64,000 bases of DNA, from assembly GCA_964016885.1 (NCBI GenBank), contig OZ024743.1, positions 96,348,001 to 96,412,000 of the forward strand. The letters run 5' to 3'. The notes under the pieces were generated by a model, which ran no database searches, was not told the origin of the DNA, and saw nothing but the letters and a program-made list of their open reading frames with translations. Numbering within the stretch: the first letter of the stretch is position 1; each line of letters opens with the position of its first letter. Of the stretch, positions 6,451-52,634 are shown one piece after another. The stretch is from Eledone cirrhosa. Taxonomy: Eukaryota. Made by a program: the position numbers and the translations under genes.

Positions 6451-6635
6451 ATATAATTTCTTAAGACAGCATATATATGTGAAGGTATGTATATTTCCTC
6501 TGATAATTTGTAATATTTTTACATAGATTTATATGATATACATACCAACACACATATGCATCATAGAAACGATCGTAAAATGATGAATATTTTAATATAA
6601 GGAACTTGTTCTTTGTTTTTATTTCATTGTTTTTA

Positions 6636-6675
<40 letters not shown>

Positions 6676-6677
6676 GA

Positions 6678-6730
6678 TAACTCCGCCTTAGCCGGTCCCA
6701 AGCCCGGTTGAGAAAGGAGGAGGGTTGGGG
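6678..6730 (+). ncRNA. Twister ribozyme (type P1, no P3) at the RTE 5' end
   Basis: TAA CTCC GCC tta GCCGG TCCCAAGC CCGG ttgagaaa GGAG GAGGG: P2 CTCC/GGAG, P4 CCGG/CCGG, L4 TCCCAAGC and GAGGG match the twister consensus. Confidence 0.85.
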
Positions 6731-9705
6731 CCAGGGGTTAGCAGCCCTGCCCCCGTAAAAACTTTTCACCGCTACAGAAACGACGAGAAAAAACCATTTT
6801 GATACCCAGCGGCGGAAAAGAGAAGACACGTCATCCCTGGATGCAACTATGATGGGGCCGGGTCAAAGCCGAAAGGAGGCCCGACCGTGGATAAGTCCTA
6901 TCTTCAACGCCAAATCAAACACAAGAGTAGGCACCTGGAATGTCCACACGCTCTTTCGGGACGGGCGGATGGAGCAGGTGCTGAAGGAGATGAGAGAATA
7001 TCGCCTTGACATCATGGGCATCAACGAGACGAGGTGGATAGGACGGGGACGACTCGACAGCGGAGGCATGACTATTCTCTACTCCGGTGATGATGACCAC
7101 CATATCCACGGAGCTGCTATCATCCTCACCGGAGATGTATCACGGGCTCTTGTGGGATGGAGGCCAGTGAGGGAACGAATTATTACTGCCAGATTGAGCA
7201 CAAGGTTAGCCAAGGTGACCGTAGTGCAAGTCTACGTCCCGACTGAAGCTGCCTCAGATGAAGATAAGGATACCTTCTTTATCCAACTACAGGATGTCTT
7301 AGAGGAAACACCCAGGTCAGACATTAGGCTGGTGATTGGTGACTTCAATGCCAAGCTAGATGGAGACAGGAGAGAAATGCATTCAGCCATTGGCCCCCAC
7401 GGTTCAGCTGATTCTAGCAATAACAACGGGGAACGGTTGCTGCCCCTGAGCAGTATCAGCAAGCTCTCCATCGGGAATTCATTTTTCACCCATAGGCGGA
7501 TTCACAAGATCACATGGACTTCCCCTGATGGCAACACCAGGAATGAGATTGATTATATCTGCATTGGCACGAGGTGGCGTTCCTCTCTCTTGGATGTTCG
7601 CACCTACCGAGGAGCAGACGTCGGATCTGACCATCATCTTGTGGTTGGAAAAATCCGCTTGAGGTTGAAGAAGAACAAAGCAAATAAGACCGTGAGGCCA
7701 TATGCTGTCGCAAGCCTGCAAGTCCAAGGCACGTCAGAGGGATTCTACCTGGCGATCAGGAATAAGTTCCAAGAACTACAGCACGCACAGAACCGTGAAG
7801 ACCAGTGGCAGATGTTTGCTCAGGCGGTCAGGGCGAGTGCTGATGTAGTTATTGGTAGAAGAAGGGGGACCAAGAGTACAGACGTCTTGACAAAGAAGTA
7901 AAGAAGAGCTGTCGAAAAAACAAGCGCCAGTGGTTAGAAGATCGGGCTGCAGAGGCACAGGTGGCAGCAGATCGAAATGATTCCAAGACGCTGTACCGGA
8001 TCGTCAGAGAGCTAACTGGAGGACGAAGTGGAAGCAGTTTGCCAATCAAGAGCAAAGTTGGTCGGATGCTTGCAGCCAGTGAAGAGCAGGACACAGAGGT
8101 GGAACGAACACTTTCGTGAGGTCCTCAATCAGCCATCTCTCAACACAGTCTTCGAGCATGACTGGGAGGAAGCGAGCTACCGACTGGATGTACGACTAGA
8201 CGACATCACAAGAGCTGAGGTGGCCAAGGCCATCCGCTGCCAAAAGCGGCAGGGCTGGATGAGATTCCTGCAGAGCTTCTGAAGCACGGCAAGGATGTAA
8301 TAGAGGAGCTGCTCACCCATTTATGCAATGTGATTTGGCAAGAAGAGGAGGTGCCGGAGGACTGGGGAAATGGAGTGATTGTACCACTACCGAAGAAGGG
8401 CTGTCTCAGCGACTGCAACAACTGGAGAGGGATCACGTTGCTATCAGTGCCAGGGAAGGTATTCTGCACAGTCATCCTGAACCGGCTGAGAGCAGAAGTA
8501 GATCGTCATCTTCGAGACGAACAGGCTGGCTTCCACAGTGGAAGGTCTTGTTCAGAGCAGATCTTCACTCTCCGAAATATCATTGAACAATGTCGGGAGT
8601 TCCACAAGACCCTTGTCAACTACATTGACTTCAGGAAAGCTTTCGACGGGGTTCATCAGGAGTCATTGTGGAAGATTGTAAGACTCTACGGTGTCCCAGA
8701 GAAATATATTAACATATTCAGGTCGCTGTACCGACATTCCAGGTGCTGCGTTACGACAAAGGACGGAAACACGGAAATGTTTGACATCTTGACGGGTGTT
8801 CGACAAGGCTGCATCCTTTCGCCTTTCCTTTTCCTCATTGTCATCGATTTCATCATGAAGAAGACAATGAGTGACCCTCGTTTTGGCATCAGTTGGGATG
8901 GAAGGAGATTAAGCGACCTGGACTTTGCCGATGACATCGCAGTGATAGGCCATTCCCGAGAAGACCTGCAAGAGATGACAAACGTTCTAAATGACAATGC
9001 AGAGAAAGTTGGCCTGCGCATCAGTTGTGAAAAAACCAAGACCATGTCGACAGGTGACCCTCCAATCATGGTTGGTCAGCGTAACATTGAATGTGTAAAC
9101 CACTTCCAATACCTTGGCAGCAACATCTCTGACGATGGGGATGCTGAGGTGGATGTGCGCACAAGGCTGGGAAAAGCAGCGGCGGTCTTCCAGCGACTCC
9201 GTCCGGTATGGTCCAGGTGTTCCATCGGCAACGCCGTCAAATTCCGTGTTTACATGTCCATTGTAGTACCAACAGCGATATATGCCTGTGAGACATGGAA
9301 GAGTACGGAAAGTGTATGTAACAAGCTTGATGGATTCCACCGTTGTAGCATTCGGACCATATTGAAAATTTCATGGAGAGAACAAGTTAGCAACGAGGAA
9401 GTGATGAGGAGGTCAGGATCGGAGAGGTTAAGGGACATTGTCCGGAAAAGGAGACGGCGATTCGCGGGCCACATCCTTCGTTTGCCGGCATATCGACCTG
9501 CTCATATTGCCATGGATTGGGTACCAGAAGGTGGCAGGAGAGAACGGGGAAGACCACGAAAAACATGGCGGAGCACATTCAGGAAGGATTTGCGGGAGAT
9601 GGGAATTACCTGGAGAGGTGCTAGAAGGGCCGCCAGTAACAGGATCAGGTGGAGGAAGCTAGTCGCCCAATGTTCCACAAGGGACTGGAGGAACTAAGAC
9701 TAAGA
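6679..9705 (+). mobile_element. Near-full-length RTE-clade LINE (APE endonuclease plus RT), frameshifted
   Basis: APE motifs VGTWNV, GDFNAK, IDYI, SDHHLV (6849-7901); RT motifs NWRGITLL, QAGF, GVRQGCILSP, FADD, RGRPRKTW (8330-9697); short TAAGAC repeat tail; inserted in (TA)n. Confidence 0.95.
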
Positions 9706-9900
9706 TAAATATATATATATATCTTTCTCTCAGTGATATTTGATTCTACTTTGGGGCTTACTTTATTCATATATATATCTTTTTGCATGTCAGATTCAAA
9801 CTTAAGATGTCAACATGAATGGGCCTGTTATTTTTATCTAATTACATTTTTTTCCAATTCCATCCCATCCGTTCCCTCAATCTATCTATTTCTCATTCTT

Positions 9901-10173: not shown

Positions 10174-10947
10174 TATTTGTTTGCTAAAATAATCAAATTA
10201 AATTAAATCAACAGTTAAACACGCATAGGAATAATTAGGTTGTTACCAAAGGGCCAGAAGATTGATAAGTCGACCCTAAATATTACTAATAGCTCTAGGA
10301 AAGCCATGAATGACACCACATATTTTAATTTTGATTTTGAAAGTAGGTTTATAATTATCAATTTTTATTATTCTTTTGTAGCTGTCTCGGTGGCCTAGTT
10401 GCAGGAATCATAGACAGTGGTGATCCTGGTCTGAAGTTCAATCCTAGTCAGGAGTAGGGTTCCCGGTAAACCTTTTCAGTTTATTTTCTATAGGTTGTAA
10501 AATAAAAGCTGAAAAAGGTTACATGTACCCGTTGACCATGATTGAAACCAAGGCTAGGATCTCCACTGTCTCTAGTACATACCGCTAGGCCACAGAGACA
10601 ACTACGAAAATACACTCAAAATTCATACTTATAAACCTATTTTCAAAATTTACAAAACAAAGTGTTGTAGTGTCGTTCATGTATTTCTTAATGTTATTGC
10701 TCCTACTTAAGGTCGACTTCTAAATCATTTGGGTGTTCCATAAACTATAACCTCGTTTCGTTTCACATCTATCTAGACTATATTTTAACCTGTAATCCAT
10801 GTTTCATTTCTGTTGCACCCCATTCATCGCCTCAGTCTTTCTCTCAGTCATATTTGAATCTACTTTGGGGCTTACTTTATTCATGTATATATCTTTTAGC
10901 ATGTTAGATTCAAACTAACAATGATTGTCATTATATATATATATATT

Positions 10948-11094
10948 TATTTATTAAAATAACAGATTAAAGTTTAAGCAAAGAATCGCTGCTTTCACCC
11001 TTAACGGGATCTTCTGAAACATTTTCAGAAGATCCCGTTAAGGGTAAAAGCAGTGATTCTTTACTTAAACTTTAATCTGTTATTTTAATAAATA
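10948..11094. repeat. ~146-bp near-perfect palindrome made of two inverted hammerhead-like PLE ends
   Basis: Arms ...aacagattaaagtttaagcaaagaatcgctgctttcacccttaacgggatcttctgaaa and its reverse complement; centre at ~11021. Confidence 0.9.
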
Positions 11095-11178
11095 TTTGAT
11101 CTCCGGTTCTTATATATTTGATATATATTTATCCTTATCGAGCCCTCTTTGGATTTTAGTCTTCAAATTTATTATTAT

Positions 11179-38251: not shown

Positions 38252-38650
38252 TCATCATCATAATCATCATTTCATTTTATGTCTACTTTTTGCCTGCTTG
38301 CAAGGGTGGGACGGGAACTGATTCTGTCTTGATTTCTACAGCTGGATGCCCTTCCTAACACCAACCTCATTTATAGTGAGTGGTGGGTGCTTTTTTGCCA
38401 TGGCGCCTACACGTCCACTTTACAGTGAGTGCTGGGTGCTTTTTTTTTTTTTTTGCCGTGGCACCTCCACAACCACTTTGCAGTGGAATGATAGGGACCC
38501 CAGTCCTATCATCTCATTTCTAGAGCTGAGTAAACTGGAGCAATGTGAAATAAAGTGTCTTGCTCAAGGAAACAACACCCAGTCTGAGAATTGAACTCAC
38601 AACCTTTCGATTGCAAGGCCAATGCTCTAACCACTAAGCCATGTGCCTCC
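38252..38650 (-). mobile_element. Full-length copy of the same SINE, tail-to-tail with the previous copy
   Basis: Reverse complement of 37903-38250 with a small internal duplication. Confidence 0.85.
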
Positions 38651-41600
38651 ATATATATAAAATAACATATTGGAGTAACAAGAAATATTTTTATGTGTCA
38701 TATATGTATCAAAATAAACTGAAACATCTTCTTCAATCACAGTCAGAATTATAAATGACTTTAAAGAATGAACTCAAATCACATATTGGCAACGAAATAC
38801 ATAAGTATGATATAATTAAAAGCTGGAACAATGTTTTTCATAATAATGAAATCTACTTTTTGGGAGGAGAAAGTCCATTAAATCGACCCCAGTGCATGAC
38901 TGGTACTTTATTTTATCAATGGTACTCAAAAAATATCTAATTCCGAGTATTGATACATTAATTATAATTAGCTCCTACTTAAACGTAATTAATGCAGTAA
39001 AATAGTAACTTGCTAATATATAGTGCTGAAGTTATAAAATACTCCAAGTATACATTGTAAAGTGGTTGGCATTAAAAAAGGCATCCAGCCTTAGAAACGA
39101 AGCCAAACATGGAGTATACCAGCAGGTCTCAGTACATGACAACCCATTTAACCCATAATGGTGATGATGATGATACAGCAGAAATTAATATGTCAAATGA
39201 ATATTAATGAAACCATATTTCTTATGCATTACTGTGTTCATGCATTTCAATTAATTTTTGAAATAATCAAGGATTTAGTATGGCTGAACTAGGATTCTTC
39301 TGGAAGGAATGCAGCTCCTTAATTTATAAACTACAGAAGATTTATGATAATTGGAACCATCAAAATCTGCAAAATTTTATAGGATGAATGGTTGTGCAAA
39401 GGGTGACATATAAAACAAGACACTTCTTTTATAATGTTGTCACTGAGCAAGTGATCTATCAAAATAAACTCGAAATTAAAAAAAAGAACTTACATACAAA
39501 AAGGAAAATAGACCCTTAACTCCTCACAGAGTCATAGGGGAGCTGCCCTGACACACAACCTATCTTGGACATTATAAATCTGGCAGAACCCATCTCTCTT
39601 CAGGTCAGAGCACTGTGAAGGCGCATGGCTTAGTAGTTAGAGCATTGGGCTTGCAATCAAAAGGTTGTGAGTTTAATTCTCAGACTGGGTGATGTGTTGT
39701 TTCCTTGAGCAAGACACTTTATTTCACGTTGCTCCAGTTTACTCAGCTGTAGAAATGAAATGATAGGACTGCGGTCGCTATCATTAAATTACCCAAGACA
39801 CCTCCAACGAGATATACCTTGGAGGAGACCAGCTAAACCTGCATAGGTGTGAGCTGTCACACACACACATACAGACAGAGCACTGTTGATTTCTTCTAGA
39901 GAAAGAAAGTGATAAGAGATTAAGGAAGAATCATCTTCAATATTGGACTGTTACTTTATGTATCTACCATGAAAGGATGAAAGACAAAGTTGATCTTGGC
40001 AGGATTTGAACTGACAACACAGGGAACCAGAACAAATACTAAGACGTTTTTAATCTGATACTGTTATAATATCAGCTCATAAACCTTGGAAACGTGGATC
40101 TCATACATAAACATACAACTATCAAACCAAAAAGAAAGCCTTTATGCAAACCTTTGACCTACTAGAAATAGCAGCCAATTCTCTTTAAAATCATAACCTG
40201 ATGTCTTCAAAAAGATAGACATATTGCATTATGCGCTTCTGGATACATTAATCATCTTCATTTGATGTCCATTTTCTCTGATAGCAAGTGTTGGACTAAT
40301 TATTGCAGACCAGCTCAGTGCTTAATCAGAGCTATTGATCTCTCAGATAGGCTGAGGTTCAGGGTGTACATACCAGGTGCATTTTAAAGAGGCACCAACA
40401 CTAGAAACCTTGCGTTAACAGCTGGATATCTTTCCTATCACTAACTACTTTACAGGATGTACTGGGTATATTTTTTTGTGGCACCAATACTAGAGAGATT
40501 AACGTGTTCGTGACCTGACAGAAGATTCTTCTCAACCCATTTTGGCATGGCGTCTATGGTTGGATACCCTTCCTAACACCAAGGGTTTCTAACAAAAAGA
40601 CAAGATGGTCACAATTAGAGTGTTTTTGATCATTGGTATGCCTAGTCAGGGCCTTCTAGGAGCCAAACAGCATCAACAGCACAAGTATCAGGGAAACATC
40701 TACTCCATTGTAGAAGTCAGCTGTTTATTTGATATCAATATGATTAAAATATATGTATGAGAAAAAATATGTTTATGGACTACTAATGCCATATTACTAT
40801 TGGGACAAAAGGGTATGTGCCAATCTTTGTGTATTAAAGTAGGATTGAACTTCAGTTTTAAGTAGAAAGAGTGTAACTTCATAATTTATACATAATAGAT
40901 GATCATAACATAGGGAACATTAAAATTCCTCAAAACTTAAAATGCAAATAATTGTAGAAATCTTTCATTAATTTCCTTTTTCTTTACAACTGTCACCAAG
41001 CAGGCAACTGTTTAAAATTATATGTAATAATGAAACAATTTATACACATTAGATTTTGACATTTTATATATCGTGTTATTTTAAGTACTGTTCTAATATT
41101 TTACTGCCAAGTCATCAAGGTTATAATATAATCTTGTTTCAATCTATTATTTTTTAACCCTTTAACATTTAAACCGGCTATATCCAGCCAAAATTATCTC
41201 ACATCTTTCTGTTCAAACCAGCCATAACTGGTTGCTCATACTTATGTTAAGGTATTGTTCTCAAAATAAATAATATCAAAATCTTGTAGATTCGATATTA
41301 TGTGAGATAACTATGTGAAATAAAGTGTTTACCGTGAAAATGCAATAGTAAATATAGAGTAATGTAAATGTTAAAGGGTTAAATAATTATACATACATAT
41401 ATATAATAACCACTTTGTGTTGGTCACTTAACTGGTCCATCTGTAATGATTGAGAATATAGAAGAGAGAGGGGAAGAAGCAGTGAGAAAGAAAATCAAGC
41501 ATGGGTTGAAAGAGGGTGAAGTAAACTGACCAGAGTAGTGGGCAAAGAGCAAAAGAGAGAGAGAGAGGGTAGGGGGTAGGTGTGTCAGTAGAGAGATCTG

Positions 41601-50001: not shown

Positions 50002-52575
50002 CTAAGGCGGGTAAAATTCCCGAGATCCATGGACGAGTTCTCTCCAGCGGTCTCTGTCCCTCATTATCGCTGCCATGTCCTGCGTCTCCAACAGACCAGT
50101 GTCTGTCCTTAGGGCATCAACATACGTTAACCTTGGTCTTCCTCTTCTAGTGTGTCCATGTAGGGGCTCCCAAAGGAGCACTGAGTGCAATGTCAACTGT
50201 GGATGTCGGTGAGCATGTCCAGCTAACCTCAGTCTCCTCTGTGTCACTTTTGAGCTGACTTTTGGGATGCTCCCATACAGCTCTGAGTTTTTCATCATTA
50301 TCTCATTTATTTCATGTGTATATATGTATGTGTGTGTGTGTATGTATATATGTGTGTGTGTGTATATATATGTATGTATATATCTAGGGCGGGTAAAATT
50401 CCCGAGATCCATGGATGAGTTCTCTCCAGCGGTCTTTGTCCCTCATTATTGTTGCCATGCCCTGCATCTCCAAGAGACCAGTGTCTGTCCTTAGGACATC
50501 AACATATGTTAACCTCGGTCTTCCTCTTCCAGTGTGTCCATGCAGGGGCTCCCACAAGAGCACTGAGTGTCAACTCTGGATGTCGGTGAGCATGTCCAGT
50601 TAACCTCAGTCTCCTCTGTGTCACTTTTGAGCTGACTTTTGGGATGCTCCCATACAGCTCTGAGTTTTTCATCCTCAGTGTATACTGATTAATGTTCAGA
50701 GTCATCCTCAGCATTCTCGTGTAGCACTCATCCACCATCTGAGTGAGTTTCTTGGTCAGTGTCCAAGTCTCAGACCCATACAGCAGCACAGACTCCACTA
50801 CAGCAATGAAGAGGTGGATTTTCAGGTCTCTACGAAGGTCCAACTTCCACACCGATCTCAAGCTGTGGCACGCCGCCCAGGCCTTGCTCTTCCTCTCAAC
50901 CACATCATCTTCCGTATTCCCAATCTTTGCTCCCAAATACAGGAAGCCCTCAACCAATTCTAGCGGCTTCCCGCCTACATTAGTGATCCCCTCTGGCTTC
51001 TCAACATTCTCTACCAGATATTTTGTTTTAATCTCATTCATTCTCAGCCCCACACTCATCGACACAGTCTCAACCTCCCGCATCAAATCCTATGCCTCTT
51101 CACTGTATTTGTCACCAAAACTATGTCGTCGGCAAATTCAGCATCCGATATCTTTTTCGCCCTAACTCTCCTGCTCTGAGCCGGTGCTACAGTAAAGCCA
51201 GAGTCCTGGTGTTTCTCCAGTGCAAGGCGCATACAATAGTCCACTACAATGATAAAAAGGTAGGGAGCCAATGTATCTCCCTGGAGCACTCCAGCCAGTA
51301 TCTCAAAGAACTCTGTCATCCCATTAGGTGTAATGACTTGGGCTTTGGTGTTGGTGTAGAGCAGTGATATCAGGTCCACTATTTTCTTGGGGATTCCATA
51401 AGCCTGTAAGATCTTCATCAGGCAGTAACGATGCACAGAATCAAAGGCCTTCCTAAAGTCAATGAAAACCATGACCGCAGGAAGGCACTTTGCTCTAGCT
51501 CCCTCTAATATCCTCCTCAGCATCAGGATGTGACTGGTGGTTGATCTACCCTCTCTGAAGCCGTTCTGGTTGTCCCTGAGCTTCTTCTCCATCTCAGGCT
51601 GGATCCTGTTAAGAATCATCCTGTTGAGGGTCTTTGCCACAAGTGACGTCAGTGAGATCCCCCTGTAGTTGTTGGTGTTAGAGAGATCTCCCTTCTTTGG
51701 CACTGGGACGATGTTACTGATCCTCCACTGATTCAGGGCAACTCCTTTCTCCAGTGCCCCGTTACAGAACCCCAGGATGATATCATCAAAATCACACCTC
51801 TTCATCACCTCTGATGCCACTCTATCTTCTCCATGAGCCTTGCCCTCCTTGATCCTCTTCTTGGCTCTCTGAAGCTCCTCTCTGGTGAAGGGCTCTGTCT
51901 CAACATCCAGTTCCTCAAACAGCCGCCTGATCTCCCCAGTGCTCTGGGCTGTGGAGGGTGGCTCTCCTAGCAGGGTCCTAAAATGGTCTAGCCATTTCCT
52001 CTTCCTATCCTCGGGCCCCGTTCCCTGGATTTGACTCGAACACCTTCTCTTCCTCCCTGTGATCTCGTTGATGATCATCCAGCTCTCCTTTCATCCAGAT
52101 CTGTCAATCGCTCTCTCCACACTTCTGATCTTCTCTATCAATGCCTCCTCTCTGACCTCAGTGTAAGCGGTACAGAGCTCTTCCCTCATCACCTCCACAG
52201 TCTCCATCCTTTCATCCGTAGGATCAGCATAGAATTGGTCCTTGGCAGCTTTCAGGTGTTCTCTGGCTGCACACACTTTTGGGTTTGCAGAGCTGACGTG
52301 CTTCCCTTTGTTCTTTTTCCTCGGCACCAGGGTTTCACTTGCTTCCGCCACTGCATTGGTGAAGTGCCCGTACCTCCTCGTCACACTCTCCTCAGTCCAT
52401 CCAATCTCTCTCCTCTGACTCTCCACACAGAGCACTAAACCTGTTTCTCACTTCCACTGTGAACCTCTCCTGTAGCTTATCATCTTCCTTGAAAGCTCCC
52501 CAGTCATAGATTGCTCTCCAGGGCTGAGCCTTGCTCTTTCTTAAGCTCACCCGGACCTCACTCATAACAAGCCGG
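50002..52575 (-). mobile_element. RTE-group LINE, 5'-truncated and frameshifted, with tandemly duplicated 3' end (small related piece at 42876-43040)
   Basis: GSDHRLV, NYRGISL, QNGFREGRST, GVLQGDTLAP, FADD, RRGRPR; 50002-50295 repeats 50384-50672. Confidence 0.9.
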
Positions 52576-52599
52576 TGGTCACTACCCAGTGTACTGAAA

Positions 52600-52634
<35 letters not shown>

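What the first reader, a model, noticed from the sequence alone, without database searches (positions are those of the whole stretch)
6678..6730. Twister ribozyme whose cleavage site defines the 5' end of an RTE LINE
Seen: the element starts at T|AACTCCGCC...GCCGGTCCCAAGCCCGG...GGAGGAGGG directly after an AT-rich microsatellite flank. Established: this matches the twister consensus (cleavage between U and A of UAA), and twisters head RTE/Perere-3 elements in Schistosoma. Inference: cleavage falls at 6678/6679, and the 5' strand of P1 comes from host flank (only A-U plus G.U, 2 bp). The element would then release its own RNA from read-through transcripts, with activity depending on the insertion site.
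Basis: partly seen in the sequence, partly recalled or inferred. Interest (0 to 1): 0.8.

Follow-up and report, generated by a model that had tools for sequence, protein, structure and literature searches.

The report
Twister ribozyme heading a mollusc LINE
This broken jumping gene of a mollusc (likely a cephalopod) begins exactly at the predicted cut site of a twister-type self-cutting RNA, as do most related copies in the genome, so the element likely trims its own RNA free, a trick already published for a flatworm's element and here seen in a new animal group.

Summary
Observation confirmed. 6674-6728 matches Rfam twister-P1 (49.8 bits, E 2.4e-10, under the 67.2 cut-off; P3 is absent), with both catalytic residues and both pseudoknots intact. 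The predicted cut, U6678|A6679, is the first base of a 3.03-kb APE+RT LINE with a (CTAAGA)n tail. Of 34 loci holding the 5' region, 25 start within 3 nt of the cut and none shares sequence upstream of it. Seven 5'-inverted (twin-priming-like) copies also stop at positions 1-5, a flank-independent sign of the RNA's end. The host is a mollusc, likely a cephalopod. The principle is published for Schistosoma Perere-3, and this scan noted it in other genomes. 'Activity depends on the insertion site via P1' is weakly supported: P1 is dispensable in published assays, and here its 5' strand lies in 7 unduplicated junction bases. Cleavage and transcription are untested; a competing helix and inactive cephalopod candidates in one published screen are caveats. 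Two leads: related species appear to carry an abundant 5S-rRNA-headed SINE with this twister minus its cut site, and this genome holds a single twister-headed element with an open frame but altered RT catalytic residues.

The parts
6640..6671 (.). (TA)16 microsatellite at the end of a common host repeat; likely target site
   Evidence: host repeat with 1,186 first-look candidates, whose examined copies end in (TA)n followed by varied sequence
6672..6678 (+). 7 junction bases (GACAGAT): not element, not duplicated at the 3' end; supply U-1 and the 5' strand of P1
   Evidence: absent upstream of the other 33 loci; TSD search finds only TA matches 8 nt away
6678..6679 (+). predicted scissile bond U|A; A6679 is the first base of the element and the predicted general acid
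   Evidence: alignment; start positions of copies; role from PMC6154101 and PMC11662667
6674..6728 (+). type-P1 twister without P3: P2 6681-6684/6716-6719, P4 6692-6695/6704-6707, pseudoknot pairs 6685-6686/6702-6703 and 6697-6699/6722-6724, A6700.A6721, general base G6720, P1 3' strand 6725-6728
   Evidence: RF03160 49.8 bits, E 2.4e-10; complementarity checked (pseudoknot register recalled from twister structures)
6727..6754 (+). GC-rich hairpin directly after the ribozyme; predicted to take half of the P1 3' strand; a hairpin at the same place in copy L041 and in the second family
6755..6848 (+). rest of the 5' UTR up to the first in-frame ATGs (6849, 6852)
6930..7634 (+). APE endonuclease domain (PF03372) in frame 6759-7901
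   Evidence: E 6.7e-13
7858..7873 (+). site of a roughly 110-nt deletion relative to other copies; further small indels follow, so this copy's single ORF is broken
   Evidence: (table 4)
8390..9124 (+). reverse transcriptase domain (PF00078) in frame 8219-9697
   Evidence: E 3.3e-32
9694..9705 (+). 3' tail of two CTAAGA repeats overlapping the stop codon; no 3' UTR beyond it
   Evidence: same tail in most copies
9706..9722 (.). right flank, interrupted (TA)n; with the left (TA)n it may hold the TSD, whose length cannot be read

Best explanation
[quoted passage not shown] Steps: (1, inferred) a host transcript reads into a full-length copy; (2, inferred) the twister folds and cleaves, leaving 5'-HO-AACUCC; (3, shown by its products) the APE/RT protein inserts the RNA by target-primed reverse transcription, often into (TA)n tracts, and copies that reach the end start at that AA; (4, shown in sequence) the bases 5' of the cut come anew from each junction, so P1 is rebuilt by chance against a U/G-only 3' strand (UUGG), and TA targets often restore the canonical AU|AA; (5, from published assays) P1 quality should tune activity little. 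This copy's ORF is broken, but its ribozyme core is one of 3 of 34 still wholly intact.
For: Rfam hit with all catalytic positions. 34 loci with the 5' region: first match at element position 1 in 20, 2 in 4, 3 in 1, 5 in 3, 7, 8, 15, 21, 23 and 113 in one each (one of the position-5 copies reaches position 1 with a gap). All-against-all of 300 nt upstream in 26 non-inverted loci gives 2 pair hits, both out of register with the junction; one is a host repeat with 6 hits in this window, the other also flanks unrelated loci (seen by eye). 7 of 34 are 5'-inverted, and the inverted part ends at position 1 (4 copies), at 1 within a 6-nt overlap (1), 3 and 5; L089 has a 12-nt TSD around the whole structure. 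Where both ends and a non-TA target exist, the TSD abuts the AA (L043 12 nt with one mismatch, L055 7 nt). No excess G at -1, which a copied cap would give: T9 A4 G1 C1 in 15 non-inverted copies, 0 G in the 5 inverted ones starting at position 1. A second element, 42% identical in RT, differs at 3 of the first 46 bases and also starts at the AA. In run X4 (a second organism) 7 contigs end loose at 6677-6680. Precedent with in vitro and in vivo cleavage: PMC8501958.
Against: No cleavage or RNA data. The score is under Rfam's cut-off. Nested folding prefers a 9-bp extended P4 (-19.9 kcal/mol) over the native-compatible stems (-13.3), a possible trap for the C6687-G6691 turn. In PMC11662667 none of the twisters found active came from cephalopods; which sequences were tested could not be seen (supplement unreadable). 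The 5' set was found with a query starting at 6679, so position 1 is the maximum by design; the weight rests on the lack of upstream sharing and on the inversions. Two of the 7 inverted copies lack the 3' tail and two are complex.
Confidence: 0.8

Rival explanations
1. The 5' end is a transcription start of an internal promoter in the 5' UTR; the twister fold is kept for another job (protecting the end, recruiting ribosomes or the element's protein) and cleavage is incidental.
For: Pile-up at +1 and inversions ending at +1 show the RNA's end, not how it was made. The trypanosome L1Tc leader is both promoter and ribozyme (PMC3383444 abstract in listing). The apparent SINE in related species keeps the fold without the cut site.
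Against: The end coincides to the base with the scissile bond in two families 42% identical in RT; both catalytic residues are kept; no cap-derived G at -1 (cap G in L1/SVA: PMC2912911 passage).
Confidence: 0.1
2. The ribozyme worked in the ancestral family, but this sequence misfolds (extended P4, upstream (UA)n hairpin) and cleaves poorly unless the flank or a protein helps; activity would then vary with the site, through misfolding rather than P1.
For: Extended P4 is 6.6 kcal/mol more stable than the native-compatible nested stems. Upstream P0 hairpins halved cleavage, 0.85 to 0.40 (PMC11662667 section 33), and (UA)n folds into a hairpin here. No active cephalopod twister in that screen.
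Against: Nested folding ignores the two pseudoknots and Mg. The extended helix is present in L044 too and its bases are conserved across the family, which nonetheless produced many copies ending at the cut.
Confidence: 0.08
3. Chance resemblance: a GC-rich 5' UTR that happens to score against the twister model.
For: Below the gathering score.
Against: E 2.4e-10; core identical to tested S. mansoni twisters; exact coincidence of cut and element end.
Confidence: 0.02

Closest known systems
Twister 'T-variant' ribozymes at the 5' end of Perere-3 in Schistosoma mansoni (Liu et al. 2021, PMC8501958; abstract, Results parts 1-3 of 4 and Discussion read)
   Same: Type-P1 twister at the first base of a single-ORF APE+RT LINE; identical P2, L4, GAGGG and UUGG; 5' strand of P1 from outside the element; TSD next to the AA where readable; 1A to 4A variants at the junction; short repeat tail.
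   Different: Host is a mollusc. P3 is replaced by a 5-nt turn. Strong bias for (TA)n targets (17 of 37 on each side against 5.9% background) whereas Perere-3 was described as not site-specific. About a quarter of copies are 5'-inverted. Tail is CTAAGA, not GTAA. No cleavage data here.
P3-less type-P1 twister Osa-1-4 of Oryza sativa (PMC6154101 passages)
   Same: Minimal form without P0, P3, P5; same core.
   Different: Osa-1-4 has a fully paired P1 of its own; here P1 is 2-3 bp and half of it is foreign.
HDV-like ribozymes at the 5' end of R2, RTE, Ingi/L1Tc LINEs (PMC3774820 abstract; PMC5786205 parts 1-3 of 5)
   Same: Self-cleavage frees the element's RNA from a longer transcript; cutting at the exact end goes with variable 5' junctions.
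   Different: Other ribozyme class.
Twin-primed 5'-inverted L1 insertions (PMC2912911 passages)
   Same: Inverted 5' part, direct 3' part, adjacent break points, TSD around the whole; 10 of 40 here against about 30% in L1.
   Different: RTE-type element of an invertebrate; the inner end of full-reach inversions marks a ribozyme cut, not a cap.
Bipartite RTE-derived SINEs such as CoeSINE5, HaSE3 with 5S heads (Kojima 2018, PMC5786205)
   Same: For the lead in related species: small-RNA head, piece of RTE 5' UTR, RTE 3' end.
   Different: Kojima notes that SINEs tend not to hold the LINE's very 5' end, perhaps because a ribozyme would cut the head off. The lead appears to keep the ribozyme body from position +3 and lose only the cut site.

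Membership tests
Twister ribozyme, type P1 | Stems P2 and P4 with conserved L4 | tested here: met
   identical to S. mansoni entries
Twister ribozyme, type P1 | Two pseudoknots and the A.A pair | tested here: met
   G-C, C-G; three C-G; A.A. Complementarity only; register recalled; no covariation shown
Twister ribozyme, type P1 | A+1 (general acid), A+2, G (general base) | tested here: met
   A6679, A6680, G6720
Twister ribozyme, type P1 | Stem P1 (conserved but dispensable) | tested here: inconclusive
   2-3 of 4 pairs, low pairing probability; dispensable
Twister ribozyme, type P1 | Site-specific self-cleavage | not testable with these tools
   needs a bench assay
Rfam RF03160 as curated | Score at or above 67.2 bits | tested here: not met
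   49.8 bits; the model carries P3, an optional stem present in 78% of twisters. Not filed as an Rfam member; filed under the twister class by the features above
RTE-clade LINE | One ORF with APE then RT, no ORF1, about 3.2 kb | tested here: met
   copy L044 is 3,158 nt; most full-length relatives are single proteins of about 1,000 aa. Clade features recalled
RTE-clade LINE | Very short 3' UTR ending in short tandem repeats | tested here: met
   (CTAAGA)n tail
RTE-clade LINE | RT groups with reference RTE elements in a tree | not tested
   no named RTE reference among the hits; one hit is named 'craniofacial development protein 2-like', a label recalled as typical of RTE ORFs
Perere-3-type twister-headed LINE | Full-length copies begin at the cut and P1's 5' strand varies with the site | tested here: met
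Perere-3-type twister-headed LINE | TSD directly next to the cut | tested here: inconclusive
   met in L043 and L055; unreadable in TA targets; in the window copy 7 unduplicated bases intervene
Perere-3-type twister-headed LINE | Co-transcription with upstream host sequence | not testable with these tools
   no RNA run to lay
Twin-primed inversion (sister copies) | TSD around inverted plus direct parts, adjacent break points, overlap of a few bases | tested here: met
   L089, L180, L209, L183, L197 have TSDs; break points adjacent in L088, L089, L192, L206. No TSD found for L084, L090, L178, L192
SINE3 (lead in related species) | 5S rRNA-derived head with internal promoter | tested here: inconclusive
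   only 30 letters of a consensus seen; 16 of 21 match the 3' end of the host 5S gene by eye; promoter boxes not seen

The most novel reading that the evidence does not exclude
In related species this twister leader was captured behind a 5S rRNA head to form a very abundant SINE, and it was defused rather than discarded: the cut-site bases are gone, six new bases pair with the old P1 3' strand, and the rest of the fold is kept together with the LINE's last 45 bases. The twister would then have a second, non-catalytic job in retrotransposition (binding by the LINE protein, or RNA stability), and LINE versus SINE would be a natural active/dead pair for testing it.
Probability: 0.4. Interest if true: 0.65.

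Novelty: new member of a known kind. Interest (0 to 1): 0.4.

Why it matters
Twisters are among the commonest self-cleaving RNAs, and in the papers read here the one worked-out biological role is at Perere-3 of S. mansoni. Two more twister-headed LINE families in a mollusc show that the pairing is not peculiar to schistosomes. The inverted copies give a new, flank-independent way to read the RNA's 5' end from DNA. An intact core from a likely cephalopod is a cheap test case, since one large screen found no active cephalopod twister. The principle is not new, so the finding itself is of moderate interest; the SINE lead and the RT-altered element are the parts a specialist would not expect.

Tried and rejected
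Rfam at gathering level on the whole window finds only two tRNA-like hits. The second RT fragment in the window (about 50,400-52,600, minus strand) is 5'-truncated and shows no twister. Exact-pattern searches gave 9 and 16 places, all in loci already found; they are lower bounds. The 5S-headed SINE was sought in this genome with a 16-nt motif: 36 hits against 15 control hits; 25 were fetched and none had twister or 5S sequence nearby, and 12 5S loci carried no twister. Idea that the 7 junction bases belong to the upstream host repeat: rejected, 19 other copies of that repeat continue differently. Sequencing runs: no RNA holder listed. Run X1 repeats flanks seen in this genome's loci, so it is not independent support. 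One search mixed in five loci on the wrong strand; those rows were ignored and the alignment was not used. Within-family covariation is uninformative, since copies decay neutrally (92.5% mean pairwise identity among 13 long copies). The DNA upstream of related proteins from other animals was not read, so the spread of the pairing stays open; 2 of 135 held proteins begin with a peptide like a read-through of the twister core, a hint only. PDB holds no RTE-type protein among the hits. Literature: ten searches listed no paper on a twister in a mollusc LINE or in a SINE; subscription journals and Repbase were not searched. The supplement of PMC8501958 had no hit for Octopus, mollusc or SINE (accession-only lists would not show). 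The searched supplements of PMC9115989 held no twister core motif; files 5-8 were not searched. The supplement of PMC11662667, which may list cephalopod twisters, could not be read. PMC4795812 is not held.

Full report
What is there. The sequence at 6678-6730 is as described. cmscan aligns 6674-6728 to the whole twister-P1 model with 49.8 bits, E 2.4e-10. The score is under Rfam's cut-off of 67.2; the model has a P3 hairpin that this RNA replaces by five bases, and P1 is imperfect. P3 is optional (78% of twisters; PMC6154101 passages). P2, L4, GAGGG and UUGG are identical to the S. mansoni twisters tabulated in PMC8501958. The two pseudoknots, the A.A pair, A+1, A+2 and the general-base G are all present (the pairing register is recalled, the complementarity computed). 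The scissile bond is U6678|A6679. Downstream lie a hairpin (6727-6754), an APE domain and an RT domain and a tail of CTAAGA repeats ending at 9705. The ORF is broken by a deletion of about 110 nt near 7865 and by small indels.

Host. The genome is 3.0 Gb and holds arrays of molluscan hemocyanin (39 matches to PF14830). One unit scores 659 and 650 bits against single-unit chains 4yd9_C and 1js8_A, and 460 and 372 against 8tnv_A and 1lnl_A. I recall the first two as cephalopod and the others as gastropod, so 'cephalopod' is likely, not shown.

Where copies start. A search with the first 222 nt gave 34 matches at 33 loci; a pattern search added one. Of these 34 loci, counting the window, a second-family element (L070 = L121) and one decayed copy, the first matched element position is 1 in 20, 2 in 4, 3 in 1, 5 in 3, and 7, 8, 15, 21, 23, 113 in one each. 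The query began at 6679, so the test is what lies upstream. Among 26 non-inverted loci, 300 nt upstream gave 2 pair hits, neither in register with the junction; one is a host repeat with 6 hits in this window, and the other also flanks unrelated loci (by eye). Where the target is not a TA tract, the TSD abuts the AA (L043, L055). The four position-2 copies have a single A shared with the TA flank; such 1A variants were inactive in S. mansoni. A sample chosen by the 3' end (40 scored of 269 candidates) has 29 5'-truncated copies, 10 inverted and only the window copy full-length (37 newly fetched, plus L089, L090 and the window).

Inversions as an independent marker. Seven of the 34 loci have element sequence in the opposite orientation right before the AA. 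Read as insertions they are [inverted 5' part][direct 3' part], the twin-priming pattern of L1 (PMC2912911 passages). The inverted part ends at position 1 in L084, L086, L089 and L090, at 1 within a 6-nt overlap in L088, at 3 in L087 and at 5 in L085. L089 is clean: 1-572 inverted, 563-end direct, 12-nt TSD. L086 and L087 lack the tail; L085 and L090 are complex. Here the neighbour of the AA is element sequence, not host flank, so the stop marks the end of the RNA template. It does not show how that end was made. A capped start would tend to leave a G at -1; there is 1 G in 15 non-inverted copies and none in the 5 inverted ones that start at position 1.

Target and P1. In the 3'-chosen sample 17 of 37 left flanks and 17 of 37 right flanks are TA-rich, against 5.9% of 20-mers in the window (p 6e-12). 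In 8 of 15 non-inverted copies that begin with AA, the two bases before it are AU, which restores the canonical cut triplet and one pair with U6725. In the window copy, (TA)16 stops at 6671 and seven bases follow that are neither in other copies, nor repeated at the 3' end, nor part of the upstream host repeat. They allow A-U, G.U and, past a mismatch, C-G; the downstream hairpin is predicted to take G6727-G6730. A flank effect through misfolding remains possible, since upstream hairpins lowered cleavage.

Against. Nested folding extends P4 to 9 bp and beats the native-compatible stems by 6.6 kcal/mol. The same screen found no active twister from cephalopods, and I could not see which were tested. 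There are no RNA data. Only 3 of 34 cores are wholly intact under a strict pattern: the window, L044 and L070. Long copies are 92.5% identical in pairs, so the family is not young.

A second family. L121 starts with a twister that differs at 3 of the first 46 bases, exactly at the AA, between TA tracts, yet its RT region is 42% identical to the window's. This conservation is the best evidence of selection on the ribozyme. L121 is single-copy by 5' and 3' searches and has one open 1,042-aa frame. The APE motifs look intact by eye, but RT residues invariant in 12 relatives are changed, including two of the three catalytic aspartates (D to N, D to E) and a deleted GFR motif.

Related species. The element is present in runs of four coded organisms. 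In X4, 7 contigs end loose at 6677-6680. In X6, X8 and X14 the picture differs. Summed depth over 6690-6797 is 14,000-100,000 in X8 and falls to about 1,000 beyond 6804 (depth is not copy number). Contigs join about 6798 to about 9662, the last 45 bases of the LINE. 119, 95 and 31 contigs share one loose end before 6681 (agreement 0.72-0.74). Its first 21 letters match the 3' end of the host 5S gene at 16 of 21 (by eye). The next nine include ACGCCC, complementary to the family's GGGCGU at 6728-6733, and leave only two bases before P2 where a working twister needs about six; loss of either A abolishes or nearly abolishes cleavage. Some records run from 6681 to 6798 with extra letters before and after (records 9, 25, 26). 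This reads as a 5S-headed SINE with a defused twister, the case that Kojima's argument anticipates (PMC5786205 parts 1-3). It rests on a 30-letter consensus of short contigs and was not found in this genome, so it is a lead.

Comparison and verdict. It works like Perere-3 with its T-variant twisters (PMC8501958), where cleavage was shown in vitro and in yeast. It meets the sequence features of the twister class and the layout of RTE LINEs; the Rfam cut-off is not met and the RT tree was not made. Ten literature searches listed no twister in a mollusc LINE or a SINE (see Tried and rejected). Earlier notes of this scan describe the same arrangement in other genomes and twin-primed RTE copies; I did not check them. 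Verdict: real, a new member of a known kind, interest 0.4.

Noticed in passing
L121:1001-4170 (G000:C27:7637669-7640838, +): Single-copy RTE-type element with an intact twister at its first base, an open 1,042-aa frame and intact-looking APE motifs, but changed RT catalytic residues. Either a domesticated gene or an element moved by another family's RT.
   Followed up: partly
runs X6, X8, X14 laid on window 6681-6798 and 9662-9705: Apparent abundant 5S-headed short element with the twister body lacking its cut site, joined to the LINE tail; some contigs end instead near 6761 in A-rich sequence.
   Followed up: partly
L068:801-975: Short two-part copy in this genome: element positions 23-134 joined to the last 54 nt, between TA tracts; the same two ends as the short element in the related species, without a head.
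   Followed up: partly
L084-L090, L178, L180, L183, L192, L193, L197, L206, L209: 5'-inverted insertions are common in this family: 10 of 40 copies chosen by the 3' end.
   Followed up: yes
window 6732-6733 and 6749: Three changes in this copy (GT to CA, A to G against most copies) together give a perfect 5-bp arm in the downstream hairpin, as a template switch in a quasi-palindrome would.
   Followed up: no
L057:801-896: Tandem duplication of the first 96 nt; both units start at the AA.
   Followed up: no
L047, L049, L051 junctions: Copies truncated inside the ribozyme carry extra 5' bases that resemble the element's own tail repeat, partly inverted.
   Followed up: no
proteins P0046, P0047: Their N-termini read VVPVPSLEKGGG, like the window's twister core in one frame, hinting at twister leaders in distant relatives (35% identity to L121).
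   Followed up: partly
window 50,400-52,600 (-): 5'-truncated LINE of another family with an RT domain (E 6.7e-28) and a duplicated 3' end.
   Followed up: no
window 38580-38643 (-) and 39624-39687 (+): Two near-identical tRNA-like heads about 1 kb apart in opposite orientation, at the Rfam cut-off; likely tRNA-derived SINE heads.
   Followed up: no
window 6480-6645: Copy of a common host repeat (1,186 candidates, 95-98% identical) that often occurs as inverted pairs about 200 nt apart and ends in (TA)n; MITE-like.
   Followed up: partly
window 10,380-10,610 and 10,980-11,095: Long imperfect inverted repeats seen in the sequence.
   Followed up: no
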